From NCBI GenBank assembly GCA_041168925.1, contig JBEEJY010000010.1, forward strand, positions 12,430 to 76,429: DNA of 64,000 nucleotides, written 5' to 3'. The translations under genes were made by a program, and so were the position numbers. The DNA comes from Candidatus Parcubacteria bacterium (lineage in GTDB: Bacteria; Patescibacteriota; Minisyncoccia; Phycocordibacterales; UBA2100). A model generated the notes under the pieces. That model did not search any database, was not told the DNA's origin, and saw only the letters and a program-made list of their open reading frames with translations. Positions 3,323 through 63,965 of this stretch are shown here, in pieces. Within the stretch, counting starts at the first letter, position 1, and each line of letters begins with the position of its first letter.

Positions 3323-3423
3323 TTCCTCCTTGAGCGTAAACTGTCCGGTGGATCGTTACTATACAACGAAAATCTCTGCTTGCCAAGGATGGCCACGTGC
3401 GCTCGTCGCGCTATACTTTCCGT

Positions 3424-41361: not shown

Positions 41362-41391
41362 AGTATATCAAATCCGCGATGGGACAATCAA
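41362..41391 (-). promoter_or_regulatory. promoter TTGATT-N18-TATACT-N6-ATG for grpE (leaderless-type spacing)
   Basis: Read on the minus strand between the rpsI stop and the grpE start. Confidence 0.45.
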
Positions 41392-46814: not shown

Positions 46815-46827
46815 CCTCTCCAGTATA

Positions 46828-48000: not shown

Positions 48001-48022
48001 CGCAGCCAGTATAGCAAGGATT

Positions 48023-52093: not shown

Positions 52094-53422
52094 TTACCAG
52101 ATCTCACTCGGAGCAACGTTGTTTGATTTGGTCGCGGAAAGAGGCATGCCGTCCTTGGTCGGTTTTTTCGGCCACTTGTCTATCACTTTCGTCTTCAAGC
52201 CGATGCGATTCAGCACTTTGATAAAAGGGTCGGGGTCGAGCTCTTCGGCATTGACCATGGTGTGTGGCGCCCAAATCCCCTTCGCGACGAGGATGGCGGC
52301 TGCGATGGGCGGTACGCCGGCGGTGTAGGAGATGGCCTGCGACTCGACTTCCCTGTAGCACTTGGCGTGGTCGCAGTTGTTGTAGATGAATACCTCGCGC
52401 CACTTCCCATTCTTCCACCCCTTCACGAGGTCGGCGATGCACGTCCAGCCCGTGTACGTCTTTGCGAGCGATGCCGGGTCGGGCAAAACGGCTTTCAGCA
52501 CTTTGAGCGGCACCACCTTGACCCCCTCGGCGGTCGTGACCGGCTTTTCGGAGAGCATGCCGAGATTGCGCAGCACACCAAAGACATTGAGATAGTGATC
52601 GCCGAAGCCCATCCAGAAGCGGATACTCTTGGCATCAATATTTTTCGAAAGTGAATGCAGTTCATCGTGGCCGTTGAGGTAGACCGGGCGCGAGCCGACG
52701 ACCGGGAAGGTGTAGTCCCACCGCTCGCTATGTACCGGGCGTACGACCCATTTGCGATTGATCCACGTCCACACTTTCTTGAACTCGCGGAAATTTATCT
52801 CCGGGTCGAAGTTGGTGGCGAAATATTTGCCATGGCTGCCGGCATTGACGTCGAGAATGTCTATCGTGTCTATCTTGTCGAAATAATTTTTCTTCGCAAG
52901 CGCCGCCCATACATTGACGACGCCCGGGTCGAAACCGATACCGAGGATGGCGTTGATGCCCGCTTTTTTACAAGCAGCCCGTTTCTTCCATTCATAATTC
53001 GCGTACCATGGCGGATCTTCTGCGACTTTGGTCGGATCTTCGTGGATGGCGGTGTCCATGTAGGTTACCGGGCGGCCGTTCACCTCTTTTGCACGGATAC
53101 ACGCCTCCAAGACCGACATATTGATGTAAGCCGTGCCGAGATTGATCACGATGGACGAATTCGTGTCCTTGATGAGTTTCGTCATCGCGGAAATGTTCAT
53201 CGCATCTATCTCTCGCGAGTAGAGCTTCGCATTCTTATCTTTCTTGCTCCCCTTGCGTTTGATGCTGGCGATGATGGCGTCGGCTTTGGCGCGCTTGCGC
53301 GAGGCGATGCAGATATCTCCGAGGACGTCGTTGTTTTGCGCCGCTTTGTGTGCGGCCACATGAGCGACGGCACCCGCGCCCACAATCAGTACGTTTGGTT
53401 TTGTGTTTTTCATGACCTGCAA
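52094..53422 (-). CDS. carboxynorspermidine synthase/dehydrogenase (saccharopine dehydrogenase family)
   Basis: Rossmann fold VLIVGAGAVAHVAAHKAA and a saccharopine dehydrogenase-like C-terminus; adjacent to the carboxynorspermidine decarboxylase gene. Confidence 0.75.
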   Translation of the reverse strand: MQVMKNTKPNVLIVGAGAVAHVAAHKAAQNNDVLGDICIASRKRAKADAIIASIKRKGSKKDKNAKLYSREIDAMNISAMTKLIKDTNSSIVINLGTAYINMSVLEACIRAKEVNGRPVTYMDTAIHEDPTKVAEDPPWYANYEWKKRAACKKAGINAILGIGFDPGVVNVWAALAKKNYFDKIDTIDILDVNAGSHGKYFATNFDPEINFREFKKVWTWINRKWVVRPVHSERWDYTFPVVGSRPVYLNGHDELHSLSKNIDAKSIRFWMGFGDHYLNVFGVLRNLGMLSEKPVTTAEGVKVVPLKVLKAVLPDPASLAKTYTGWTCIADLVKGWKNGKWREVFIYNNCDHAKCYREVESQAISYTAGVPPIAAAILVAKGIWAPHTMVNAEELDPDPFIKVLNRIGLKTKVIDKWPKKPTKDGMPLSATKSNNVAPSEIW

Positions 53423-53434
53423 ACTGTCGACCTT

Positions 53435-54592
53435 CTAACCGGTAACCGCTCCCAGGCTTCCCTCGAAATCATCGTAGGTAAATTCTCGTACGACGTCAAC
53501 AGCGCCGTCGAGCCGCTTCACGACTATCGAGGGCATCTGCACGCCGTTGAACCAGTTCATCTTCACCATGGTGTAGCGCGCCGCTTGATCGAACACGACA
53601 TAATCGCCGACTTTCAACGGCTCCGGGAGGTCATAGGTGCCCCATATGTCTCCCGCAAGACAGGTATTACCAGCGACCATGAAGCGATTCGGACCCGTCG
53701 CTTTCTCGGCGAGCGTCGCATCTTCGTGATAGACGAGATTATCGAGCATATGCGTCTCCACGGCCGCGTTTATGATGGCAATTTTGAGCTCGTTCTCGAC
53801 GATGTCTTGCACCTGCGTCACCAGAAATCCGGTGCCGAGCACCGACGCCTCGCCAGGCTCTAAGTAAACTTGTACGTCATAGTCGGTCGCGAATTTCTTC
53901 AGCCGGTCGCAGAATTTATCGAGCGGATAGCCTTCGTCGGTAAACGCGATACCGCCGCCGAGCGATACCCACTCCATTTTTTTAAGAAGCGGCCCGTATC
54001 TCTCCCCAATCGTATCGACGATTTTTGAAAACGCATTAAAATCCGTGTTCTCGCAATTTACGTGGAACATAAGCCCCTGTATCTTGTCTGCGACCTTCTC
54101 GATGGCCGCGATGTCCTTCACCCCAAGACGGCTCGCCTTGCGCGCCGGATCAGCGAGATCGAAGTGCGAGTGGCTCACGCCCGGATTGGCCCGCAACCCA
54201 AGATTCTTTCCTTTCACATCCGGATAAAACCGCTCCAGCTGCGAAACGGAATTGAAGATTATCTTGTCGGCAAAGGTTTTAAGCTCGTCTATGTCTTTTT
54301 GCGACCACGCGACGCTGTAGCCTTGCGTCTCGCCACCGAATTTCTCATGCCCCAGGCGCGCCTCGTAGAGCGCGCTCGAAGTAGTCCCGGCCATGTACTT
54401 GCTCATGAGTGGGAAAACAGACCACGTCGAGAAGCATTTGAGCGCTAAAACCGCTTTCGCGCCGCTTTTGTCCCGAACATATTTCATCTTTTCCATGTTC
54501 TTCAGGAGCCGCGCCTCATCGAGCAGATAGTATGGCGTCTGCAATTCCTTGTGCGCTTTCACAAAATCCCAAATCGATTCTTCTTTTGACAT
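53435..54592 (-). CDS. nspC: carboxynorspermidine/carboxyspermidine decarboxylase (PLP-dependent, fold type III)
   Basis: ODC/DapDC-like TIM barrel with a PLP lysine region (AVLALKCF) and a C-terminal beta domain; paired with the dehydrogenase upstream. Confidence 0.8.
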   Translation of the reverse strand: MSKEESIWDFVKAHKELQTPYYLLDEARLLKNMEKMKYVRDKSGAKAVLALKCFSTWSVFPLMSKYMAGTTSSALYEARLGHEKFGGETQGYSVAWSQKDIDELKTFADKIIFNSVSQLERFYPDVKGKNLGLRANPGVSHSHFDLADPARKASRLGVKDIAAIEKVADKIQGLMFHVNCENTDFNAFSKIVDTIGERYGPLLKKMEWVSLGGGIAFTDEGYPLDKFCDRLKKFATDYDVQVYLEPGEASVLGTGFLVTQVQDIVENELKIAIINAAVETHMLDNLVYHEDATLAEKATGPNRFMVAGNTCLAGDIWGTYDLPEPLKVGDYVVFDQAARYTMVKMNWFNGVQMPSIVVKRLDGAVDVVREFTYDDFEGSLGAVTG

Positions 54593-54676
54593 CGTTCGCA
54601 CTATATCACATAGTGTCTCGCAGTCCTGTTCCGGTTGGCCGGCAGGCGGACTAACACAAATTCTGACAGGTGTATC

Positions 54677-55183
54677 ATGCGAGCCTTGGAAACGGTCAAC
54701 CTGAAGGGGAGCACCGTGAGCGTATCGATCGGCGTGATTACCCCGGCGACGGACATTGCGATCTTCGGTGCGTGGGCTTATTTCCTGACCGCGTGGTCAT
54801 GGGGACGCGGCTATCCGGTTGGCTCCTTTGAGGAAATCGTTCGGATGCAATTCGCGATCACTGCGATGATCGAGGATGAGCCAATCGGCTTCGGCGGCAT
54901 CAACCTAACGGCCAATAACGACAACTCGAACGAGTTCGTGCAATGGTTCTCCGCATGGGTCGTTGCTCCGCAATTTCAACGGCGAGGTATCGGGAGAATT
55001 ATTCACCGACACTGCATCGATAGAGCGGTCGATCAACCCGGGCCCATTCGCGCAACTTCCGAATCGTTCCACATGCACCCATTCTTTATCAAAGAAGGAT
55101 GGGCGATCATCCAAGACAAGGAGACGGCCCGGAACGAAGCCGGAAAGCCGATGTACGTCTATGGTTTTTCCCGCGGCGAATAG
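54677..55183 (+). CDS. GNAT-family N-acetyltransferase
   Basis: Motif A VVAPQFQRRGIGRII. Start at MRALETV assumed. Confidence 0.7.
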   Translation: MRALETVNLKGSTVSVSIGVITPATDIAIFGAWAYFLTAWSWGRGYPVGSFEEIVRMQFAITAMIEDEPIGFGGINLTANNDNSNEFVQWFSAWVVAPQFQRRGIGRIIHRHCIDRAVDQPGPIRATSESFHMHPFFIKEGWAIIQDKETARNEAGKPMYVYGFSRGE

Positions 55184-55240: not shown

Positions 55241-56230
55241 TTATTTTTGGTGAGACTTGATCGCTCTCATGATTAGAAACTTCGATTCGTAGTGATACGG
55301 AGGATTCGCTTTCGAATATGATTCTCGCGGAATTCTGCTCCGCCAAAATCGCGTTGCATACCCCCGGAAAAGGCGGTTCAGCATTCTCTCTGCGGATTGG
55401 TTTGTATATGCTTTTTCGCCGGGAATGACGTAGGGTTTGCCATCGAATCGGTCCCGCTTGATGTCCGTGGCGAAATCGATGAGTGCTGTTCCATTAGGCT
55501 TGAGCACTCTGTCTATCTCGGAGGCAATGTGTTTGAGTGTGCGCAGAGGAAAGATGTGGAGAGTCCCCACGCAGAAGACGCCGTCCATAGAATTTGCCAC
55601 TATTGGAAATCGTCGAGCGACATCGAAGACTTTCGTTGTGAACTTTCTCTTGTACTTTCGCGATATATTGCGCAGCGACTTCTCAAGGGCGTTCGGATCG
55701 ATATCCGAAGCAATGAGTGAATTAACCGTCCTCAGAAGCAACGCATTGCACCTCCCGTCTCCAGCCGTTAGATGGAGCCACGCACCCTTCACTCGCAGCG
55801 TGTTAATAACCTCCACGGTCTTCGGATCCTCTAAACCCCAGATGGATCGTCTTCCTGTTTTGAGATAATCGATGTGCTCGATATGGTGGTGCAGTCTTTT
55901 CTTATGACGAGAATCTTCGGGTGTTGTATGTGATACTTCATCACTAATCTTGTTTAATCCACTGGCCGCGAAAGCGCCTTCTGATTTCAGCATCGCTTGT
56001 TTTCTGAGCGTGCCGCCTCTGTTGTAGCTCCCAAGCGAACCATCGGAGCGGATGACACGATGGCAAGGGATGCTCTCATCGTAATTGGTGAGCATGATGG
56101 CACCGACGGCGCGCGCGGCCTTCGGATTGCCCGCTCTTGCGGCGACTTCTTTGTAGGTCATTGACTTCCCTTTCGGGATTTTTCTCACCACATTTCGCAC
56201 TTTGTCTGCAAACGTCTTCATGCTCGTCAT
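55241..56230 (-). CDS. fusion protein: N-terminal MGMT-type DNA-binding domain (PCHRV active-site motif) + C-terminal class I SAM-dependent methyltransferase
   Basis: N-terminal 90 aa match the O6-alkylguanine-DNA alkyltransferase C-domain (TYKEVAARAGNPKAARAVG...IPCHRVI). The C-terminal region has the Rossmann motif I LHLTAGDGRCN and the post-II motif LKPNGTALIDF. Confidence 0.6.
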   Translation of the reverse strand: MTSMKTFADKVRNVVRKIPKGKSMTYKEVAARAGNPKAARAVGAIMLTNYDESIPCHRVIRSDGSLGSYNRGGTLRKQAMLKSEGAFAASGLNKISDEVSHTTPEDSRHKKRLHHHIEHIDYLKTGRRSIWGLEDPKTVEVINTLRVKGAWLHLTAGDGRCNALLLRTVNSLIASDIDPNALEKSLRNISRKYKRKFTTKVFDVARRFPIVANSMDGVFCVGTLHIFPLRTLKHIASEIDRVLKPNGTALIDFATDIKRDRFDGKPYVIPGEKAYTNQSAERMLNRLFRGYATRFWRSRIPRESYSKANPPYHYESKFLIMRAIKSHQK

Positions 56231-56266: not shown

Positions 56267-56302
56267 TATACTATATCTTTGCTATAGCATAGTTTTAGTA
56301 TA
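56267..56302. repeat. 36-bp AT-rich palindromic element TATACT-N8-GCTATAGC-N8-AGTATA overlapping the start codon of the PaaX-like gene (divergent promoter region)
   Basis: Part of an about 45-bp direct repeat with the element at 56888..56923. Confidence 0.6.
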
Positions 56303-56871
56303 TGGGAGAAATTGAACGGAGGGGAAAATTAAGGAGGCGAAGGAGGAACATTAAGAATGCCCTGCTGACGGCGATTCAACTTGCGGCAGTTGTCGGTGTC
56401 GCCGTCGCTGCGCCGAATCTGCCGCAAGCCCTTTATAAGACAGGTCTACTGAAGATACGCGGGGATGGCGCGGTTATAAGTCGCTCACGAAGAAACTTGT
56501 TGAGGCGACGTCTACTAAAAGAAGAAAAGGGATTTCTCGTATTGACACGCGCTGGGCAAAGAGAACTGCTTCGGATTGAGCTCGGTGAACGGCGATTGAA
56601 ATCTTTTCGATGGGATGGACGATGGCGTGTACTTATCTTTGATATCCCAGAATACAGAAAGAAAGACCGAGAGAAATTGCGTCGCACGCTCCGGAGCGTC
56701 GGATTCGAGCATTTACAGGACAGCGTCTGGATCTATCCTTATGACTGCGAAGATTTTGTGGCTCTTTTGAAGGCAGATTTCAAAATTGGGAAGGACATGC
56801 TGTATATGATTGTGGAGGAACTCGAGGGAGATTCGACGCTCCGGAAGCAATTCAACCTTCGAAACCGCTAG
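56302..56871 (+). CDS. PaaX-like transcriptional regulator (wHTH + PaaX_C/Cas2-like C-terminal domain)
   Basis: C-terminal WDGRWRVLIFDIPEYRKKDREKLRRTLRSVGFEHLQDSVWIYP matches the PaaX C-domain pattern; the N-terminal half is helix-rich. Flanked on both sides by the palindromic element. Confidence 0.5.
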   Translation: MGEIERRGKLRRRRRNIKNALLTAIQLAAVVGVAVAAPNLPQALYKTGLLKIRGDGAVISRSRRNLLRRRLLKEEKGFLVLTRAGQRELLRIELGERRLKSFRWDGRWRVLIFDIPEYRKKDREKLRRTLRSVGFEHLQDSVWIYPYDCEDFVALLKADFKIGKDMLYMIVEELEGDSTLRKQFNLRNR

Positions 56872-56956: not shown

Positions 56957-57769
56957 TCAGATACCGAGGGTCCCGGTGGATTTTGGATCGTTTCTCTTTC
57001 CATGAGCGGAGTGGAGCTGCAGCTCCTTACCTGCCGTCTCGCGGTAACGGCAGTATTCGCACTCCTCTTTTTTATCCGGCACGGAGTCGCTTTTTAAGCA
57101 GTGCGCGAGCCGCTCTATCAGCGGCTCGATCCAGTCCGTGTCGCCTTTGTGGGAAATCACTCTGACGTCGAACTCGAGCTTGCCGTCGAACGAGGGCGCA
57201 TCGCTGTTTCCGTTGACGTAGACGAAATATGCGGTCGGCGAAACTTTTTCTCCGATGCCGCGCAAGAGCCATTGGTAGATCTCTACCTGTCGTTTGTATC
57301 CTTGCTGCCAGTATCCTTCGATCGTAACCTCCTCTTTTTTCGAGGTCGCTTTGTAGTCGACGACATGCAACTGACCATCGGGTGTTACCCACACGTCGTC
57401 GAGTCCGCCCCGGAAAATAAATCCGGTTTGGCGGTGATGAAATTGTACGCCGCGGCGAAACGCGTCGCGCCACTCATCCAGCCGATCGTCTTTGAGCGGT
57501 ATGGCATCGATCTTGTACGCTTTCATGAGCGGATGCGCCTCCCCTTTGGCGCGGTGAATGTCGAATTCCCGTTTTAAGAGTTCATCGACGGCGTTGTTGA
57601 GGGAAAACGCCGGAAAAGACGGCCGAGCGATCCCAAGTCGCACGTCGAGGTAAAAACACCTCGGACATTCGTGAAAAAGATCGATTTTCGAGCGGCTTAT
57701 GCGAAACGGCTCCGGCGAACTCGGATCGTAAAGGTTACGGGTCCGTTTGGCGTAGAGCTTGGGAGGCAT
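56957..57769 (-). CDS. Cas4-like/RecB-family PD-(D/E)xK nuclease with Cys cluster (DUF83-type), not CRISPR-associated here
   Basis: N-terminal Cys (HECPRCFY), the D-x-K motif in VVDYKATSKK, QxxxY (QVEIYQWLL), and a C-terminal C-x12-C-x2-C (CLKSDSVPDKKEECEYC). Confidence 0.6.
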   Translation of the reverse strand: MPPKLYAKRTRNLYDPSSPEPFRISRSKIDLFHECPRCFYLDVRLGIARPSFPAFSLNNAVDELLKREFDIHRAKGEAHPLMKAYKIDAIPLKDDRLDEWRDAFRRGVQFHHRQTGFIFRGGLDDVWVTPDGQLHVVDYKATSKKEEVTIEGYWQQGYKRQVEIYQWLLRGIGEKVSPTAYFVYVNGNSDAPSFDGKLEFDVRVISHKGDTDWIEPLIERLAHCLKSDSVPDKKEECEYCRYRETAGKELQLHSAHGKRNDPKSTGTLGI

Positions 57770-57789
57770 TCCGCGAGTATAGCACTCGC

Positions 57790-58296
57790 CTAACTCATCG
57801 CACCTGGTGCGGTGTCGTGATTTTCATGGTGTTCGGTAAACCAGTGTTTGAAACGATTCTCCAGGTACCACATGCCGGTAAACATGATCAGGGAGAGAAT
57901 GGTGGAAAATACCGCGACCGCGTACATCCCGAAGCCGGCGGCCATGCCGATGGCGCTCACGATCCATAAGCCCGCCGCGGTCGTGATGCCGTGCGGCACG
58001 TCGCCGCGAAAGATGATGACTCCCGCGCCGATGAAACCGATACCGGTCGCCACCCCTGCTGCAAGCTGAAGCGGCTGGATGTTGACGATCCCAAGGTATG
58101 CCGAATCGACATAGTTGGAAATGAGAATGAAAAGACATGCGGCGAGCGCGACGAGGCCGAAGGTGCGCGTGCCGGCCGCTTGTTTGGCGAGAATGGCGCG
58201 CTCGGTACCGATGCATGCGCCAAGGGCCATGGCAAGCAAGAGCTTGCCGAACATGACGACTGTCGGGTCGATAAATTCAGCCGGCGTAGGTTGCAT
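57790..58296 (-). CDS. mgtC: MgtC/SapB-family membrane protein
   Basis: Four to five TM helices with the MgtC signature (ALGACIGTERAILAKQAAGTRTFGLVAL). Confidence 0.75.
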   Translation of the reverse strand: MQPTPAEFIDPTVVMFGKLLLAMALGACIGTERAILAKQAAGTRTFGLVALAACLFILISNYVDSAYLGIVNIQPLQLAAGVATGIGFIGAGVIIFRGDVPHGITTAAGLWIVSAIGMAAGFGMYAVAVFSTILSLIMFTGMWYLENRFKHWFTEHHENHDTAPGAMS

Positions 58297-58313
58297 ATGA
58301 GTCGACTATACCA

Positions 58314-59180
58314 TCAAATACCGCACAACTGTTTGGCTTCATCGAGAACATGGGGAATTTTATCGGGGCGTATGCCGAATTCCTTGAGCATATGCGGGGT
58401 CGTGACGCTTTTGCACAGCACGATGCGCCGGTCGAGGAAACGATGCTTCTCGCCATCGGAAAGCGTCGTGAGACAGGTAAGCGGATGCACCTTCCCCGCT
58501 TCGATCATATGGAAGAGGCCGCGATCGTGCGGATAATCCCAGCCGAGCAACGTAAGCCCCGAACACTGCGCGTAGCGGATCGCATTCCGAGTAAAGCGAG
58601 TGTTGGTCGCCAGCCATCCTTCATCGATACGCATCGATGCTTGTGGCGCCGCGTGGAGATCTTCGTAGCGCGCGCACACGTAGAGCGCATCTTTGATGTC
58701 GGTTTTGCCGGACGCATCATTGTGAAATTTTGCTTCGATGCCGACGCGTTTGCCGCCGCGCTCCGCGACCACGTCCACCTCGTGCGGCGCGCATCTGCCC
58801 GTGAGTGCAACGCCGGTGCGCACGTGCCAGCCCTGGGCGCGCAGCACTTCGGCGAGAAATTGCTCAAAAGGAAATCCCGAGGGGCCCAATGCGAAAACGG
58901 CGCGCTTGATCGAGTAGCGCGCGGCGACGGGCGTGACGTCCTCGCGCCTCAGTATCTCGAAGGCGCGCCGGTATATATCTTCGGTGTACATTCCCGGACG
59001 AAGTTCGCGCATCATGTGCGCGAGAATCTTCGCGCGTGCCGTCGAGGAGGCACCCGCTAGCTCGAGCGAATGCATGAGCTTGCCGGGATCAAACGGCTCT
59101 TGCTCGCCGTCGGCTTTGGTAATGACAAACTCGCGGCTCTGTCGCGTCGATGGCTGCGGACGTGAGGCTATCGTTGTCAT
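58314..59180 (-). CDS. ATP-cone domain fused to an Mrr-like restriction endonuclease (PD-(D/E)xK) domain
   Basis: The N-terminal region (FVITKADGEQEPFDPGKLMHSLELAG...KILAHMMREL...DIYRRAFEILRR) matches the ATP-cone as in NrdR. The C-terminal HEVDVVAERGGKRVGIEAKF carries the D..E.K catalytic motif of Mrr_cat. Confidence 0.6.
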   Translation of the reverse strand: MTTIASRPQPSTRQSREFVITKADGEQEPFDPGKLMHSLELAGASSTARAKILAHMMRELRPGMYTEDIYRRAFEILRREDVTPVAARYSIKRAVFALGPSGFPFEQFLAEVLRAQGWHVRTGVALTGRCAPHEVDVVAERGGKRVGIEAKFHNDASGKTDIKDALYVCARYEDLHAAPQASMRIDEGWLATNTRFTRNAIRYAQCSGLTLLGWDYPHDRGLFHMIEAGKVHPLTCLTTLSDGEKHRFLDRRIVLCKSVTTPHMLKEFGIRPDKIPHVLDEAKQLCGI

Positions 59181-59608
59181 GGTCTGGAAGAACCGCTTTT
59201 GCTCGCATAGGGTAAGACCACGATCGGCAGTCCTGCGCCGTTAAGCGACGCGACGAATTCAATGCCGGCGGCCGGTCCGAAAACGACCGCGTGGAACGAG
59301 CGCGGCGTTTCTTCCTTCGGGCAGTCCTTGATAGCGGGTTCGCGCCACGTCCGGAACGAAAGCATGAAGGTCGAAGTTGAAAGTGCCTCCGTATGCACGA
59401 TGAGTTCGTCGCACGGCGTGGGGACGGACACCATCCCGAAGAGATTGTGAACACCCGGCTGCAATTCGTCGCGGATCATGACCGATCCGAGCGCTCCTGA
59501 TTCCCGGGTATGGACGATGTTGCCGAGAAAAAGATAGCTGCCGTACGCGATCGCAGCGGCGAGAAACGCAAACCAAAGAAAAGGCCACACGATGTATCCC
59601 ATGCGCAT
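59177..59608 (-). CDS. small membrane-anchored hypothetical protein (143 aa)
   Basis: N-terminal TM helix; stop overlaps the start of the ATP-cone/endonuclease gene by 4 nt. Confidence 0.4.
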   Translation of the reverse strand: MRMGYIVWPFLWFAFLAAAIAYGSYLFLGNIVHTRESGALGSVMIRDELQPGVHNLFGMVSVPTPCDELIVHTEALSTSTFMLSFRTWREPAIKDCPKEETPRSFHAVVFGPAAGIEFVASLNGAGLPIVVLPYASKSGSSRP

Positions 59609-59632
59609 AGTATACCGCGCGCTTGCGCGGGC

Positions 59633-60691
59633 TTATGGCAGGTTCTCCCGCGAAATAATACCGCCGCCAAGACATTCATCGCCGCGGTAGAGTACGAGCG
59701 ATTGGCCGGGAGAGACGACATGCGGGCGACGAAATGTAAACACGGGGGGCGAGGCGTCCATAGAGAGAATGCCCTCGACAGGCTCTTCATGGTAGCGTGA
59801 CTGCGCGAAAAGCGATTCTTGGGAAAGCGCGGTCTCACCGACCCAGCGAAGTTGGGAAAGCGCGACACGCGAGCACGCCGCAACATCGCGCGTCCGCGCC
59901 ACCTGCAATACATTTTTCTCGACATTGATTCCGACCACGTAGTGCGGCTCGTTTCCGCCGCCCCCTGCGGTAAAACCGTGCCGCTGCCCGATCGTGTAGA
60001 GCGCCGCTCCTTCATGACGGCCGACGACGGAGCCGCTCTCGTCTACAACATCGCCTTGCGCGAGGGGAATGTAGCGCGAAAGGAAATCGCGCATCGAGAC
60101 ATCGCCGACGAAGCAAAGCCCCTGACTGTCCGGCCGATCCGCGTTTGGAAGCGCATAGCGGCGCGCAAGTTCGCGTACGCGCGATTTCAGCAGCGAACCG
60201 ACGGGGAACATCGCGTGCGCCAGCTCGTCCTGACCGAGTCGGTACAGAAAATAGGATTGGTCTTTCGCAGCGTCCGCCGCGCGCCGCAGGGCAAATGCGT
60301 CATTCCTTTCCTCGACGCGGGCATAATGCCCGGTCGCGACGATGTCGGCGCTTTCCGCGAGCGCCCAGCGCAGCAGCGCGCCGAATTTTATCTTTTCATT
60401 GCAGCGCACATCGGGGTTTGGCGTTATGCCTCGCGAATAGTCGGCAAGCATCGCATCGACGACTTCCCGCTGATACGCGGATGAGAGGTCTACCTCGCGA
60501 AATGGGATATCGAGCGCCGCGCACACGCGCAGCGCGTCGAGCCTGTCTTCTTTCCAGGTGCACTCCAAAAATTCAGGTCGCCAGATTTTTACAAACACGC
60601 CGGTGACGTCGTGCCCCTGCGCTTTGAGAAGCGCCGCCGAAACGGCGCTATCCACGCCGCCGGAAACCGCCGCGTATACGCGTTTCGCCAT
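59633..60691 (-). CDS. mnmA: tRNA-specific 2-thiouridylase MnmA
   Basis: PP-loop AVSGGVDSAV and a catalytic Cys region (ADRPDSQGLCFVG). Confidence 0.9.
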   Translation of the reverse strand: MAKRVYAAVSGGVDSAVSAALLKAQGHDVTGVFVKIWRPEFLECTWKEDRLDALRVCAALDIPFREVDLSSAYQREVVDAMLADYSRGITPNPDVRCNEKIKFGALLRWALAESADIVATGHYARVEERNDAFALRRAADAAKDQSYFLYRLGQDELAHAMFPVGSLLKSRVRELARRYALPNADRPDSQGLCFVGDVSMRDFLSRYIPLAQGDVVDESGSVVGRHEGAALYTIGQRHGFTAGGGGNEPHYVVGINVEKNVLQVARTRDVAACSRVALSQLRWVGETALSQESLFAQSRYHEEPVEGILSMDASPPVFTFRRPHVVSPGQSLVLYRGDECLGGGIISRENLP

Positions 60692-60703
60692 GTACGGACT
60701 ATA

Positions 60704-61802: not shown

Positions 61803-63215
61803 TTATTTCGGCAAATTGGGCGGCGGCTCGGCTTTCTTGGCCGGAATGCGCTGCAAGCCGGGCGCGACGATGGCGCTCGAAGGCGGATGCCACATGGTCG
61901 CGAGGATTTCGGTCGACATCATGTTGTGCGGCATGATCCAGGGCGAGTAAAAATGCGATCTCCTGCGGTAACAATCGAAAAATCGCCGCTGCATGAGCCG
62001 CCAGCGGATATCGCGAAAATCCTGCCACGGCCAATCGAACGGATTGCCCCAACGACGCGGACGCATTTGGTTGGCATACTGCGCGTTGCCGACAGGCCGC
62101 CAGATCCAGCGAACACCGGTGTAGCCCGCGCTGTTGAATTTGTCTGCATCGCTGATATAAACACCGCGCGCGCCGACGTTGAAAGGATGCTTGCTCATGT
62201 TGCGATCCATCGCCTCGATGAGTTGCGCATAGCGATACTGCGGCACGCGGGCCGATCGTCGCCACGGTTCTTTGTCGACATCTCCGACCGCCTCTTTTCG
62301 CAGCGCATTGATTTCGCGCTTGATGACGCCCTGATAGCGCGACTGCGTTTCCCACCACGGCTCGCCCGGAACGTGTTCGACGTCGCGACACATGGTGATC
62401 ACGAACTGAATCCACATCTGCTCGTCGGGCCGCAGAATACTCATGCGCTCGAGCACTTCCGCGAGCGGGTCGATCTTGTACTCCTCTTTCGGATCCTTGT
62501 CGAGCTCGAATTCCACATAGGTGCGAATGGGATACGCGTCATTGCGGGGTTCGAAACGCCAGTCGGTCGGAAAGCATTCTTGTTTTTCGGGATCAAAGCG
62601 GTATTTCGAGGCATAATCTTCCGCCTCGACAATCTCCACTTCGGGATAGTAGGCATAAAGCGCGGCTTCGACGTTGGGACGCCATTGTTTCCAACACCAA
62701 ATATAAAAATGCACGTCGCCGCCGAATGAGGCGATCTCGAGCGAGAAGATCGGCCGCACCTGGCCCTGCCAGATACGATTGAGAAAAGTCGTTTCGCCCG
62801 AGTCCGTCCATAGCTTCGAGAGGGCGTTTTCCATGGCGCGGGGAGAGCGCACGAGATCGCGCGAAAATCTCACCTCGAGCAAGAGCGTCTCGCGCTTGAA
62901 CAAAAAGACGCCGTGGGAATACCACACCCACACTTTCCACGCCGCGACCAGGAGCGCGATCGGAAGCCATACCGGCGCGGTACCAAGGAGCCACTCGAAT
63001 GCGAAAAGCGGTAGGTTGGGGATCATGTTCCAGAGTATGCCCATGAGCCCCCAAAAAAGTACCGAGAGAAACAGGCACCGGGAAATACCCCAATAATTGC
63101 CGAACAGGCCGTCCACGATGTGGTGGAAATTGAGACTCAAAAACTCTCCGACGAGACCGCGCAGATCGCCGGATCCGATCACGCCTTCCTGCTCGTATTC
63201 TTTGATAAACGCCAT
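61803..63215 (-). CDS. Trp-rich membrane protein of unknown function (470 aa)
   Basis: Two to three N-terminal TM helices, then a large W/R-rich soluble domain. No known motif recognised. Confidence 0.45.
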   Translation of the reverse strand: MAFIKEYEQEGVIGSGDLRGLVGEFLSLNFHHIVDGLFGNYWGISRCLFLSVLFWGLMGILWNMIPNLPLFAFEWLLGTAPVWLPIALLVAAWKVWVWYSHGVFLFKRETLLLEVRFSRDLVRSPRAMENALSKLWTDSGETTFLNRIWQGQVRPIFSLEIASFGGDVHFYIWCWKQWRPNVEAALYAYYPEVEIVEAEDYASKYRFDPEKQECFPTDWRFEPRNDAYPIRTYVEFELDKDPKEEYKIDPLAEVLERMSILRPDEQMWIQFVITMCRDVEHVPGEPWWETQSRYQGVIKREINALRKEAVGDVDKEPWRRSARVPQYRYAQLIEAMDRNMSKHPFNVGARGVYISDADKFNSAGYTGVRWIWRPVGNAQYANQMRPRRWGNPFDWPWQDFRDIRWRLMQRRFFDCYRRRSHFYSPWIMPHNMMSTEILATMWHPPSSAIVAPGLQRIPAKKAEPPPNLPK

Positions 63216-63281
63216 AGCGCAATCTTATCATTCCCGACGCATCGGGAAGGCGCTTGTCGACAGAGCTTGTCGACAGAGGGA

Positions 63282-63965
63282 CTATTTCGAAAGCGTGTAC
63301 TTCCCTTCCGGAGTCCGCGCAAACATCGAATGCTGCAAATTGACGGCGATGGTGGCGTCTTTGACATATCGCTCGCGCTTCACGCGATCCACGATCTCTT
63401 CGCGCGTGAGCGGACCTTCGCGCTTCAAAATACCGGCAATGACATCGCGCACGACTCCCGGCTCGTACCCCCATTCTTTCAGAGCATAGAGCCCGCGTCC
63501 GACGAGAACGAACCGGTTGTCTTTGATGAGTTCATTGTGGGTGGTCGCCGGATGCGTCTTGCGGCCGAAGAGTTTTTCGATCGATCGAGCGACTTCGGTG
63601 AAGTGCATCGGAGAGCCGTGGCGTTTGAGCGTGAGATAGGCGAAGTCGCGCGTGTTTTTGATCCGCACGTGAGGCGACTCCGAACGTCCCCACTCGCCGA
63701 GCGGGTTTTTACCGATGCGCTTGCTGATCGAGAGCCAGCGAGAGAGCACTTCGGTCGGACGGGGCTTCACCCCCTGCTGCCTCAGGTGCTTGTTGAAGAG
63801 TTCCACGAATTCTTCGTGCGGGATCAATTTGTTGGACTCGAGCGACTCGTAAAGATTCGAGAGTGACGCTTCCACCTGATCGGCGAGCGCTTCGTCGATA
63901 TGCCAGCGCGCTTTGAAATCCGCATCTTCCCGGCGGTCGTCAAACTGATGACCGACCGTGAGCAA
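63282..63965 (-). CDS. HARE-HTH (RpoE/delta-N-like winged helix) domain protein
   Basis: The C-terminal half has two wHTH units (MHFTEVARSIEKLF...DNRFVLVGRGLYALKEW; ...LTREEIVDRVKRER...) resembling HARE-HTH. Confidence 0.45.
   Translation of the reverse strand: MLTVGHQFDDRREDADFKARWHIDEALADQVEASLSNLYESLESNKLIPHEEFVELFNKHLRQQGVKPRPTEVLSRWLSISKRIGKNPLGEWGRSESPHVRIKNTRDFAYLTLKRHGSPMHFTEVARSIEKLFGRKTHPATTHNELIKDNRFVLVGRGLYALKEWGYEPGVVRDVIAGILKREGPLTREEIVDRVKRERYVKDATIAVNLQHSMFARTPEGKYTLSK

What the first reader, a model, noticed from the sequence alone, without database searches (positions are those of the whole stretch)
56957..59608. Candidate nucleic-acid-targeting operon: TM protein / ATP-cone::Mrr-like endonuclease / MgtC / Cas4-like nuclease
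Four minus-strand genes are tightly linked: 4-nt overlap, then 17-nt and 20-nt gaps. They are a 143-aa membrane-anchored protein, an ATP-cone fused to an Mrr-type PD-(D/E)xK endonuclease, an MgtC-family membrane protein, and a Cas4/RecB-like Fe-S nuclease. An ATP-cone (allosteric ATP/dATP sensor of NrdR and ribonucleotide reductases) on a restriction-type nuclease suggests nucleotide-pool-gated DNA cleavage. Pairing with a second nuclease and two membrane proteins resembles a defence or abortive-infection module rather than housekeeping. The adjacent MGMT-DBD/MTase fusion, GNAT and PaaX-like regulator reinforce an island-like context.
Basis: partly seen in the sequence, partly recalled or inferred. 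Interest (0 to 1): 0.65.

Follow-up and report, generated by a model that had tools for sequence, protein, structure and literature searches.

The report
ATP-cone nuclease in conserved gene string
The four genes are real and correctly identified, but they form a vertically inherited, highly conserved stretch of a tiny "Parcubacteria" genome rather than a mobile anti-phage island, and the centrepiece is an unstudied nuclease fused to an ATP/dATP-sensing domain that probably ties nucleic-acid breakdown to the cell's nucleotide supply.

Summary
All four minus-strand ORFs, their spacing (-4/17/20 nt) and every domain call pass HMM checks. The key protein (58314-59180) has an ATP-cone, an AF1548-like PD-(D/E)xK nuclease and a helical C-terminal domain. 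Its AF2 model has pLDDT 94.8, and E106/D136/E149/K151 are invariant in 118 diverse homologues.

The defence-island reading is not supported. In 80 related species genomes the order MltG-MnmA-(TM143)-nuclease-MgtC-Cas4-like-MGMT recurs (MgtC 77/80, Cas4-like 75/80). The nuclease is more conserved (median 71% identity) than MnmA (55%) or MltG (57%), and its divergence tracks theirs. No phage homologue was found, only 2 of 72,556 plasmids carry one, and no PADLOC system matches.

TM143 is detected in only 43 of the 80 loci. The Cas4-like gene has a separate history (two forms) and its own conserved leaderless-type promoter (70/75). The "operon" is therefore probably three transcription units.

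In Bacteroidota and Chlamydiota, homologues sit beside a beta-CASP nuclease (35/80 loci), an AMP-phosphorylase-like enzyme and a PRPP synthetase. MgtC-family genes also recur there.

Best reading: an adenine-nucleotide-gated housekeeping nuclease for nucleic-acid turnover or salvage. The function is inferred, not shown, and no study of the family turned up in the literature searches.

The parts
59177..59608 (-). TM143: small N-terminally membrane-anchored protein with no family match. It overlaps the nuclease gene by 4 nt. It is an optional component.
   Evidence: ORF. No Pfam, NCBIfam, PHROG or PADLOC hit. One hydrophobic segment at residues 3-32. tblastn detects it in 43 of 80 related loci at 33-56% identity, and the MnmA-to-nuclease gap is bimodal (0-180 nt against 418-666 nt).
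59609..59614 (-). TATACT -10-like hexamer in front of TM143. It abuts the first ATG and lies 6 nt before the second ATG at 59602, so the true start may be M3.
   Evidence: An equivalent hexamer lies 5-9 nt before the start in 35 of 43 orthologous loci.
58314..59180 (-). ATP-cone::AF1548-like PD-(D/E)xK nuclease::AF1548-like C-terminal domain (called 'ConeMrr' here). This is the core of the finding.
58902..59126 (-). ATP-cone domain (residues 19-93).
   Evidence: PF03477 at 29.0 bits against a cutoff of 25.8. K22, G25, K34, S38, T66 and Y89 are at least 90% conserved in 118 sequences. Structural matches to NrdR and RNR cones.
58545..58877 (-). Mrr_cat / AF1548-like restriction-endonuclease-fold domain (residues 102-212), with E106, D136, E149 and K151.
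   Evidence: PF04471. These four residues are invariant in A1 and A2. D136, E149 and K151 correspond to D38/E51/K53 predicted for AF1548 (PMC1821046; alignment).
58317..58544 (-). C-terminal helical domain (residues 213-288), AF1548-like_C. It is probably a tandem helix-hairpin-helix DNA-backbone binder.
57790..58296 (-). MgtC-family membrane protein. It has the short form with the membrane domain only.
   Evidence: PF02308 E 7e-31. Below the NCBIfam equivalog cutoffs. Present after the nuclease in 77 of 80 loci. Also present in three more distant Patescibacteria (CPR) loci.
58305..58310 (-). TATAGT (TGgTATAGT, extended -10-like) 8 nt before the MgtC ATG.
   Evidence: An equivalent element is present in 43 of 77 orthologous loci, against 1 of 55 and 3 of 65 for control genes.
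56957..57769 (-). Stand-alone Cas4/RecB/Dna2-like PD-(D/E)xK exonuclease with an invariant CxxC...CxxC metal site.
57776..57781 (-). TATACT (TGcTATACT) 6 nt before the Cas4-like ATG.
   Evidence: An equivalent element is present in 70 of 75 orthologous loci.
59633..60691 (-). MnmA (tRNA 2-thiouridylase), 24 nt upstream of TM143. It is the most persistent neighbour of the nuclease across Patescibacteria.
   Evidence: Pfam. Present in 74 of 80 loci. Also adjacent in the distant loci L086, L090, L175 and L176.
55241..56230 (-). MGMT (Ogt-type, PCHR motif) fused to a SAM methyltransferase. In relatives MGMT directly follows the Cas4-like gene.
   Evidence: Pfam and NCBIfam. The MGMT part is present in 60-62 loci and the methyltransferase part in 0 of 80. 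The fusion is confirmed in an independent assembly.
56302..56871 (+). PaaX_M (Cas2-like fold) protein with an N-terminal TM segment. It is a lineage-specific insertion between the Cas4-like gene and MGMT.
   Evidence: Pfam. 0 of 80 loci. Present in the independent contig L174.

Best explanation
**What it is.** The region is part of a long, co-directional, vertically inherited string of core genes in a Paceibacteria/Kaiserbacteria-like Patescibacterium: HARE-HTH, DUF8128, MltG, MnmA, [TM143], ATP-cone nuclease, MgtC, Cas4-like, MGMT ... UDG. It is not a defence island.

**The central protein.** It is an active metal-dependent PD-(D/E)xK endonuclease of the AF1548/Mrr fold. An N-terminal ATP-cone binds adenine (deoxy)nucleotides. 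By analogy with ribonucleotide reductase and NrdR, the cone would switch the enzyme's oligomeric or DNA-binding state. Cleavage would then depend on the ATP/dATP pool.

**Most likely role.** Controlled nucleic-acid turnover feeding nucleotide salvage and phosphate/energy balance. The endonuclease makes the entry cuts. A neighbouring exonuclease degrades from the ends: Cas4/Dna2-like in Patescibacteria, beta-CASP in Bacteroidota and Chlamydiota. The MgtC-family membrane protein belongs to the same ATP/phosphate-homeostasis theme.

**Shown.** Gene structure, domains, intact catalytic and nucleotide-binding residues, conservation, synteny and neighbourhoods.

**Inferred.** Nucleotide gating, substrate, direction of regulation and physiological role.

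**Transcription (inferred).** Three units: TM143 + nuclease (translationally coupled), MgtC, and Cas4-like (+MGMT in relatives). Each starts at a leaderless-type -10 element.
For: **Structure and active site**
- Pfam domains pass their cutoffs.
- The AF2 model has pLDDT 94.8.
- E106, D136, E149 and K151 are invariant, and K22, G25, K34, S38, T66 and Y89 are at least 90% conserved, across 118 sequences of 34-76% identity.

**Core-gene, vertical behaviour**
- 80 species-level genome loci share the gene order: MgtC 77/80, Cas4-like 75/80, MnmA 74/80, MGMT 60/80.
- Median identity to the window is 71% for the nuclease, against 55% for MnmA and 57% for MltG.
- Pairwise distances of the nuclease correlate with MnmA (r 0.62), hyp227 (0.57), MgtC (0.54) and MltG (0.53). 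This matches the correlation between housekeeping pairs.
- The order persists in Campbellbacteria, Yonathbacteria and other Patescibacteria at about 45% identity.

**Link to nucleotide metabolism**
- Pontibacter and Criblamydia plasmids both carry nuclease, beta-CASP hydrolase, archaeal-type/AMP-phosphorylase-like phosphorylase and PRPP synthetase in a row.
- The beta-CASP gene follows the nuclease in 35 of 80 diverse metagenomic loci. The phosphorylase is present in 11 and the PRPP synthetase in 8. Usp, Hsp20, PFK, DeoC aldolase and AAA_28/dNK-like genes recur nearby.
- Patescibacterial neighbours include an ATP-cone class II RNR and a YfbR-like HD nucleotidase.
- Patescibacteria (CPR) genomes are reported to have limited biosynthetic capacity (PMC7304191) and a nucleoside/AMP pathway using RuBisCO (PMC5113843, abstracts).

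**MgtC**
- It recurs next to the nuclease in Patescibacteria.
- A MgtC-DUF4010 protein lies near it in 9 of 80 non-Patescibacteria loci.
- Salmonella MgtC limits ATP accumulation and rRNA overproduction (PMC7980370).

**Transcription units**
- A TA[TC]ANT hexamer lies 5-9 nt before the start in 70/75 loci for Cas4-like, 43/77 for MgtC and 35/43 for TM143.
- For the nuclease it is found in 2/43 loci when TM143 is present and 19/37 when it is absent.
- Control genes score 1/55 and 3/65.
Against: - No biochemical data exist for any member of the family (literature searches).
- Nucleotide binding, substrate (DNA or RNA) and direction of regulation are all inferred.
- In the window's own lineage the immediate neighbours are tRNA-modification and DNA-repair genes (MnmA, MGMT, UDG), not salvage enzymes. 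The salvage link is therefore imported from distant relatives of 35-45% identity.
- Conserved synteny within Patescibacteria may reflect slow genome rearrangement rather than shared function.
- All 80 genome loci were found through the nuclease itself, so its prevalence in the clade was not measured.
- Other distant members have unrelated neighbours (Tag/UvrB, none informative, ATP synthase).
- The promoter calls are pattern matches without transcript data.
Confidence: 0.5

Rival explanations
1. Defence or abortive-infection module. The ATP-cone senses a phage-induced shift in nucleotide pools and unleashes the Mrr-like nuclease. The Cas4-like nuclease and the membrane proteins act as co-effectors.
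For: - There are weak PADLOC hits to the ZorD Mrr-like nuclease (E 1.6e-5) and to CARF_PDDEXK.
- The Cas4-like gene behaves like an exchangeable gene, with two forms and no congruence with its neighbours.
- A small variable spot with lineage-specific insertions lies just downstream.
Against: - No complete PADLOC system matches.
- The nuclease is more conserved than its housekeeping neighbours and evolves congruently with them.
- Its genomic position is fixed in 80 species and in more distant Patescibacteria.
- It has no homologue in 50,697 phage records, in IMG/VR or in BFVD at full length.
- Only 2 of 72,556 plasmids carry it, both inside metabolic clusters.
- TM143 is dispensable.
- GC content is not atypical.
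Confidence: 0.1
2. DNA-repair or recombination cluster. The ATP-cone nuclease is a structure- or damage-specific endonuclease acting with the Cas4/Dna2-like end-processing exonuclease, MGMT and UDG. Its activity is tuned to dNTP availability for repair synthesis.
For: - The Cas4-like gene directly abuts MGMT in most relatives, and UDG lies a few genes further on.
- The Cas4-like fold is closest to Dna2, AdnAB, Cas4, MGME1 and Exo5, which are end-processing nucleases.
- One distant homologue sits 20 nt after a Tag 3-methyladenine glycosylase and near UvrB.
- The C-terminal domain looks like a helix-hairpin-helix DNA binder (inference).
Against: - Repair genes are not among the recurrent neighbours in the 80 non-Patescibacteria loci, where beta-CASP, nucleotide-catabolic and stress genes dominate.
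- The Cas4-like gene has its own promoter and a separate evolutionary history, so its linkage to the nuclease may be positional.
- The literature searches run here found no ATP-cone linked to a nuclease or repair enzyme.
Confidence: 0.2
3. No functional module at all. The four genes are unrelated neighbours held together only by the low rearrangement rate of small Patescibacteria genomes. The nuclease acts alone, or on RNA (for example tRNA or rRNA processing next to MnmA, or ribosome turnover).
For: - Separate promoter-like elements precede MgtC and the Cas4-like gene.
- TM143 is optional.
- The Cas4-like history is incongruent with the other genes.
- The oldest conserved pair is MnmA and the nuclease.
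- Some Patescibacteria go straight from the nuclease to RRF, RseP, ProRS and MreB.
- The partner in other phyla is a beta-CASP enzyme of the RNase J/CPSF type.
Against: - MgtC-family genes recur near the nuclease in two very distant branches.
- A second nuclease is adjacent in both branches.
- The fold and the C-terminal domain are typical of DNA enzymes.
Confidence: 0.2

Closest known systems
AF1548 of Archaeoglobus fulgidus (PDB 1y88; Pfam Mrr_cat + AF1548-like_C)
   Different: The deposited AF1548 chain (199 residues) aligns only to residues 107-287 of the query and shows no ATP-cone. It is itself a structural-genomics protein of unknown function, so it gives no functional precedent.
ATP-cone regulators: NrdR and the ATP-cones of class I/II/III ribonucleotide reductases
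   Different: The output domain is a nuclease, not a reductase or a zinc-ribbon repressor. No ATP-cone-controlled nuclease was found in the literature searches.
Ligand-gated PD-(D/E)xK nucleases of defence systems (Can2/Card1, NucC, Cap4)
   Different: The sensor is an ATP-cone that reads housekeeping nucleotides, not a CARF or SAVED domain that reads cyclic oligonucleotides. There is no cyclase or CRISPR partner. Conservation and context are those of a core gene.
Mrr type IV restriction endonuclease
   Same: It matches the Mrr_cat catalytic domain family.
   Different: It lacks the N-terminal Mrr_N winged-helix DNA-recognition domain and has an ATP-cone in that place. It is not patchy or island-borne.
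Cas4 / AddB / Dna2 iron-sulfur RecB-family exonucleases (for the 270-aa protein)
   Different: It scores below the Cas4 equivalog cutoff. The cysteine spacing is CxxC...CxxC, where I recall the Cas4/AddB pattern as C...CxxCx5C (recalled from memory, not checked here). There is no CRISPR array and there are no cas1 or cas2 genes. It is a stand-alone gene usually followed by MGMT.
Salmonella MgtC
   Same: It has the MgtC membrane domain (PF02308). The characterised protein limits ATP accumulation (PMC7980370), which fits an ATP-sensing neighbour.
   Different: It scores far below the equivalog cutoffs (96 against 214 bits). At 168 aa it appears to lack the C-terminal part of the 215-231-position equivalog profiles. 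The function of such short forms is unknown.

Membership tests
ATP-cone (PF03477) | Sequence match above the curated threshold | tested here: met
   29.0 bits against a cutoff of 25.8, residues 19-93.
ATP-cone (PF03477) | Four-helix/beta-hairpin cone fold | tested here: met
ATP-cone (PF03477) | Binds ATP/dATP and changes the quaternary state | not testable with these tools
   Only conservation of K22, G25, K34, S38, T66 and Y89 (at least 90% in 118 sequences) speaks for it.
AF1548-like / Mrr_cat PD-(D/E)xK nuclease | Homology to the family and an intact E...D...ExK catalytic site | tested here: met
   PF04471 at 38.6 bits against 21. 1y88 at E 1.6e-28. E106, D136, E149 and K151 are invariant.
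Type IV restriction enzyme Mrr | N-terminal Mrr_N DNA-recognition domain and sporadic, horizontally mobile distribution | tested here: not met
   The N-terminus is an ATP-cone. The gene is syntenic, slowly evolving and congruent with housekeeping genes.
Known anti-phage defence system (PADLOC models) | Components match a described system | tested here: not met
   Only isolated weak domain hits: the ZorD nuclease domain, CARF_PDDEXK and Cas4. Nothing matches TM143 or MgtC. The partners in other phyla have no hits.
Defence island / mobile element | Variable genomic position, atypical composition, presence on phages or plasmids | tested here: not met
   Fixed position in 80 species. GC 0.52-0.59, as in the rest of the window. 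0 phage records. 2 of 72,556 plasmids.
Cas4 (TIGR00372) | Score above the equivalog cutoff | tested here: not met
   28 bits against a cutoff of 65.
Cas4 (TIGR00372) | Association with a CRISPR array and cas1/cas2 | tested here: not met
   No tandem or CRISPR repeats and no Rfam hit in 64 kb. Neighbours are MgtC and MGMT.
Cas4/RecB/Dna2-like nuclease superfamily | RecB-type fold and motifs, with a cysteine cluster stapling the N- and C-termini | tested here: met
MgtC family | MgtC membrane domain | tested here: met
   PF02308 at 107.5 bits against 31.4, with multiple hydrophobic segments.
MgtC (Salmonella-type equivalog) | Full-length equivalog score including the C-terminal soluble domain | tested here: not met
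   96.4 against 214 bits and 64.5 against 255 bits. The 168-aa protein covers only profile positions 8-139 of 215.
Single four-gene operon | Co-directional, short gaps, no internal promoters or terminators | tested here: inconclusive
   Co-directional with short gaps and no convincing terminators. However, conserved -10-like hexamers lie 5-9 nt before the MgtC start (43/77) and the Cas4-like start (70/75). No transcript data are available.

The most novel reading that the evidence does not exclude
The ATP-cone has been recruited outside deoxyribonucleotide synthesis to gate a nuclease. This 280-aa protein would be a nucleotide-pool sensor that decides when a cell digests nucleic acid (imported DNA, or its own RNA or DNA) to refill nucleotide, phosphate or energy pools. 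In a large radiation of Patescibacteria with limited biosynthetic capacity it would be a core enzyme. In Bacteroidota and Chlamydiota it would be the entry step of a nuclease, AMP-phosphorylase-like enzyme and PRPP-synthetase catabolic cassette.
Probability: 0.3. Interest if true: 0.75.

Novelty: new variant of a known kind. Interest (0 to 1): 0.5.

Why it matters
**If the inferred mechanism holds.** In my recollection, ATP-cones have been studied only as allosteric switches of ribonucleotide reductases and of the repressor NrdR. None of the literature searches run here found one attached to a nuclease. A widespread family (at least 408 clusters at 50% identity) in which the cone is fused to an intact nuclease would extend that control logic to nucleic-acid degradation.

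**A handle on an open question.** It would help show how ultra-small, biosynthetically poor Patescibacteria balance nucleotide supply. It is directly testable because cultivable carriers exist (Pontibacter actiniarum DSM 19842, Criblamydia sequanensis).

**A methodological caution.** Two nucleases plus membrane proteins in tight array looked like a defence system. Conservation, congruence and promoter analysis show a core-genome string instead.

Tried and rejected
**CRISPR link for the Cas4-like and Cas2-like (PaaX_M) genes.** Rejected. There is no array and no Rfam hit in the window. The Cas4 equivalog cutoff is not reached. The PaaX-like gene is a lineage-specific insertion.

**NrdR-like repressor with a dead nuclease.** Rejected. 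The catalytic residues are invariant.

**Phage origin.** The IMG/VR scan found nothing, although only one peptide pattern was used, so sensitivity was limited. INPHARED tblastn found nothing. BFVD gave only single-domain matches.

**Literature on ATP-cone plus nuclease, Mrr or restriction endonuclease, and on 'ATP cone domain-containing protein'.** Nothing relevant turned up. The only AF1548 paper predicts a restriction-like nuclease.

**Generic sigma-70 and terminator scan.** Counts were no higher than in shuffled sequence, so it was uninformative. The -10-only, leaderless-type pattern was found afterwards by inspection.

**AlphaFold DB fold search.** The library was unavailable.

**Looking for the beta-CASP, phosphorylase and PRPP-synthetase partners in the window or in Patescibacteria loci.** None were found.


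Full report
**1. Observation**

The four minus-strand ORFs are at the stated coordinates with the stated spacing:
- TM143, 59177-59608.
- A 288-aa protein, 58314-59180, overlapping TM143 by ATGA.
- MgtC, 57790-58296, after 17 nt.
- A 270-aa nuclease, 56957-57769, after 20 nt.

The 288-aa ORF has no other possible start before residue 22. Pfam confirms every domain call above its curated cutoff: ATP-cone plus Mrr_cat, MgtC, and PDDEXK_1. It also confirms the neighbours: the MGMT DNA-binding domain fused to a methyltransferase, a GNAT, and a PaaX_M protein. The 270-aa protein hits PADLOC Cas4 models but is below the Cas4 equivalog cutoff.

An identical Cas4-like protein is on record from a 'Candidatus Parcubacteria' MAG. 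An independent assembly shows the same gene order, including the fusion and the PaaX-like gene.

**2. The central protein**

- Residues 107-287 are homologous to the structural-genomics protein AF1548 (PDB 1y88; E 1.6e-28).
- The AlphaFold model is confident (pLDDT 94.8, pTM 0.89).
- In 118 sequences spanning 34-76% identity, E106, D136, E149 and K151 are invariant. The ATP-cone positions K22, G25, K34, S38, T66 and Y89 are at least 90% conserved.
- D136, E149 and K151 align with the triad predicted for AF1548 (PMC1821046).

So this is an intact nuclease carrying what is probably a functional nucleotide-binding cone. The family is large: 1121 cluster representatives at 50% identity with E<=1e-3, and 408 with E<=1e-30. 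Nearly all of the best 150 are full length. I found no paper on it.

**3. Is it a defence island? No.**

A scan of one genome per species returned 80 loci from Kaiserbacteria-like Patescibacteria. Their gene order is HARE-HTH, DUF8128, MltG, MnmA, (TM143), nuclease, MgtC, Cas4-like, MGMT..., UDG. Counts are MgtC 77/80, Cas4-like 75/80, MnmA 74/80 and MGMT 60/80.

| Gene | Median identity to the window |
|---|---|
| ATP-cone nuclease | 71% |
| MgtC | 67% |
| MnmA | 55% |
| MltG | 57% |

- Pairwise distances of the nuclease correlate with those of MnmA, MltG, hyp227 and MgtC (r 0.53-0.62). Housekeeping genes correlate with each other to the same degree. This indicates vertical inheritance.
- GC content is unremarkable.
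- PADLOC finds no system.
- No homologue exists in 50,697 phage genomes, in IMG/VR or at full length in BFVD.
- Only two of 72,556 plasmids carry one.
- The genuinely variable elements lie outside the four genes. The PaaX-like gene and the methyltransferase half of the MGMT fusion are absent from all 80 loci. The GNAT has one weak match at 28% identity.

**4. Is it one operon? Probably not.**

- TM143 is detected in 43 of 80 loci, and the MnmA-to-nuclease spacing is bimodal.
- The Cas4-like gene exists in two forms: 14 loci including the window, against 61 loci, with 53% identity between the forms. Its distances do not correlate with any neighbour (r about 0.15).
- In the window, MnmA, TM143, MgtC and the Cas4-like gene each have a TATANT hexamer, often TGnTATANT, 6-8 nt before an ATG. 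This is the geometry of leaderless transcription. Fourteen further genes in the window show the same pattern.

| Gene | Orthologous loci with a TA[TC]ANT hexamer 5-9 nt before the start |
|---|---|
| Cas4-like | 70/75 |
| TM143 | 35/43 |
| MgtC | 43/77 |
| Nuclease, TM143 present | 2/43 |
| Nuclease, TM143 absent | 19/37 |
| hyp227 (control) | 1/55 |
| MltG (control) | 3/65 |

I infer three transcription units:
- TM143 plus the nuclease.
- MgtC.
- The Cas4-like gene, plus MGMT in relatives where the two genes abut.

**5. Deeper context**

More distant Patescibacteria, at about 45% identity for the nuclease, keep parts of the order:

| Locus | Gene order |
|---|---|
| Campbellbacteria | MnmA, nuclease, MgtC, Cas4-like, MGMT, then RRF, RseP, ProRS, MreB |
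| Second locus | MltG, MnmA, nuclease, Cas4-like, methyltransferase, YfbR-like HD |
| Yonathbacteria | MnmA, nuclease, GDSL, MgtC |
| Fourth locus | nuclease, MgtC, x, PDDEXK_1, MGMT, methyltransferase, UDG |
| Fifth locus | ATP-cone RNR, MnmA, nuclease, RRF, RseP, ProRS, MreB, without MgtC or Cas4-like |

Outside Patescibacteria the picture changes:
- Plasmids of Pontibacter actiniarum and Criblamydia sequanensis both carry four genes in a row. These are the nuclease, a beta-CASP metallo-hydrolase, an archaeal-type/AMP-phosphorylase-like 'thymidine phosphorylase' and a ribose-phosphate diphosphokinase.
- In Criblamydia the cluster lies among glycogen phosphorylase, phosphoketolase and acetate kinase.
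- Among 80 metagenomic loci nearest to the Pontibacter protein, recurrent neighbours are listed below. The beta-CASP carriers share a median 50% nuclease identity, so the pair is not one clone.
- Other single examples show Tag/UvrB, ATP synthase or nothing informative.

| Neighbour near the nuclease | Loci out of 80 |
|---|---|
| beta-CASP gene following the nuclease | 35 (55 loci have >1.5 kb downstream) |
| AMP-phosphorylase-like phosphorylase | 11 |
| PRPP synthetase | 8 |
| Universal stress proteins | 22 |
| P-type ATPases | 19 |
| MgtC-DUF4010 proteins | 9 |
| Phosphofructokinase | 8 |
| 2-hydroxyacid dehydrogenase | 8 |
| Hsp20 | 6 |
| DeoC-type aldolase | 4 |

**6. The other parts**

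- MgtC is a short, membrane-only form well below the Salmonella-type equivalog scores. Characterised MgtC limits ATP accumulation and rRNA overproduction (PMC7980370).
- TM143 has no detectable relatives outside this clade.

**7. Interpretation**

Shown:
- An intact AF1548/Mrr-fold nuclease fused to a bona fide ATP-cone.
- It is core-like, slowly evolving and syntenic in a Patescibacteria clade.
- It is flanked by a second, end-processing nuclease and an MgtC-family protein.
- Distant homologues are embedded in nucleotide-catabolic or stress clusters, again with a second nuclease and again sometimes with MgtC.

Inferred:
- The cone couples cleavage to the ATP/dATP pool through oligomeric switching, as in RNR and NrdR.
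- The physiological role is controlled nucleic-acid turnover for nucleotide salvage and phosphate/energy balance. This is plausible for organisms reported to have limited biosynthetic capacity and a nucleoside/AMP pathway (PMC7304191, PMC5113843).

| Reading | Confidence |
|---|---|
| Nucleotide-gated housekeeping turnover/salvage nuclease | 0.5 |
| DNA repair | 0.2 |
| Merely positional neighbours, or an RNA role | 0.2 |
| Defence/Abi | 0.1 |

**8. Novelty and score**

The architecture is catalogued: sources name it 'ATP cone domain-containing protein' or 'restriction endonuclease', and Pfam holds AF1548-like_C. It is not characterised. It is best described as a new variant of two known kinds, ATP-cone allostery and ligand-gated PD-(D/E)xK nucleases. 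Interest is 0.5.

Noticed in passing
window, e.g. minus-strand hexamers at 60698-60703, 59609-59614, 58305-58310, 57776-57781, 54600-54605, 48008-48013, 46822-46827, 41362-41367; plus-strand at 3412, 12731: 18 of 54 TATANT hexamers are followed within 3-14 nt, mostly at 6-8 nt, by a start codon (ATG in 14 of the 18) opening an ORF of at least 80 aa. Many have the extended TGn form. This suggests widespread leaderless transcription in this genome. Control hexamers score 7-21%.
   Followed up: partly
window 56957-57769 and L001-L080: The Cas4-like gene occurs in two forms at the same chromosomal position: 14 loci including the window, against 61 loci, with 53% identity between forms. Form A is as close to the Campbellbacteria protein (60%) as to Kaiserbacteria form B. 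This points to in-situ replacement or ancient allele sorting, unlike its neighbours.
   Followed up: partly
window 55241-56230: An MGMT (PCHR active-site motif) is fused to a SAM methyltransferase. The methyltransferase half is absent from all 80 related loci. Two more distant Patescibacteria have a separate PCMT-type methyltransferase gene at the equivalent place (L089, L176). The fusion is reproduced in an independent assembly (L174).
   Followed up: partly
window 56302-56871 and 54635-55183: A PaaX_M (Cas2-like fold) protein with an N-terminal TM segment and a GNAT sit on the opposite strand as lineage-specific insertions between conserved genes. The PaaX-like gene is absent from all 80 related genome loci. 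The GNAT has a single weak match (28% identity, L004).
   Followed up: partly
L092 (Pontibacter actiniarum plasmid NZ_CP021236) 1972-6597; L093 (Criblamydia sequanensis plasmid NZ_LK031773) 6022-10629: A four-gene cassette is shared at 49-60% identity between plasmids of two phyla. It comprises the ATP-cone nuclease, a beta-CASP hydrolase, an archaeal-type/AMP-phosphorylase-like phosphorylase and a PRPP synthetase (PRK07199 type). None of these proteins hits a PADLOC defence-system model beyond one weak nuclease-domain match. No dedicated literature search was made for the cassette.
   Followed up: partly
L094-L173: In Bacteroidota-like metagenomic loci the nuclease lies in clusters rich in universal stress proteins (22 loci, often several copies), P-type ATPases (19), Hsp20, PFK, lactate-dehydrogenase-like enzymes and type II GAPDH. 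Two small unknown ORFs lie immediately adjacent: 135 aa upstream in 8 loci and 84 aa downstream in 9 loci.
   Followed up: no
window 61803-63215 and 63282-63965: The 470-aa protein has no Pfam hit itself, but its orthologues are DUF8128 (PF26449). The 227-aa protein has a HARE-HTH domain, and its orthologue in L176 also carries Sigma70_r4. It is the most conserved gene of the block (median 79% identity).
   Followed up: partly
window 63252-63278: A perfect 13-nt tandem repeat, GCTTGTCGACAGA x2.1, contains a GTCGAC palindrome. It lies in the intergenic region between the HARE-HTH and DUF8128 genes and may be an operator.
   Followed up: no
window 52094-54601: Carboxynorspermidine dehydrogenase-like (Sacchrp_dh) and decarboxylase-like (Orn/DAP/Arg decarboxylase) genes, which make polyamines, sit between MGMT and UDG. 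They are present at this place in only 7-9 of 80 related loci.
   Followed up: no
L086 against L175: Two distant Patescibacteria share MnmA, nuclease, [..], RRF, RseP, ProRS, MreB. The MgtC, Cas4-like, MGMT, x block is present in one and absent in the other, so it behaves as a single indel.
   Followed up: no
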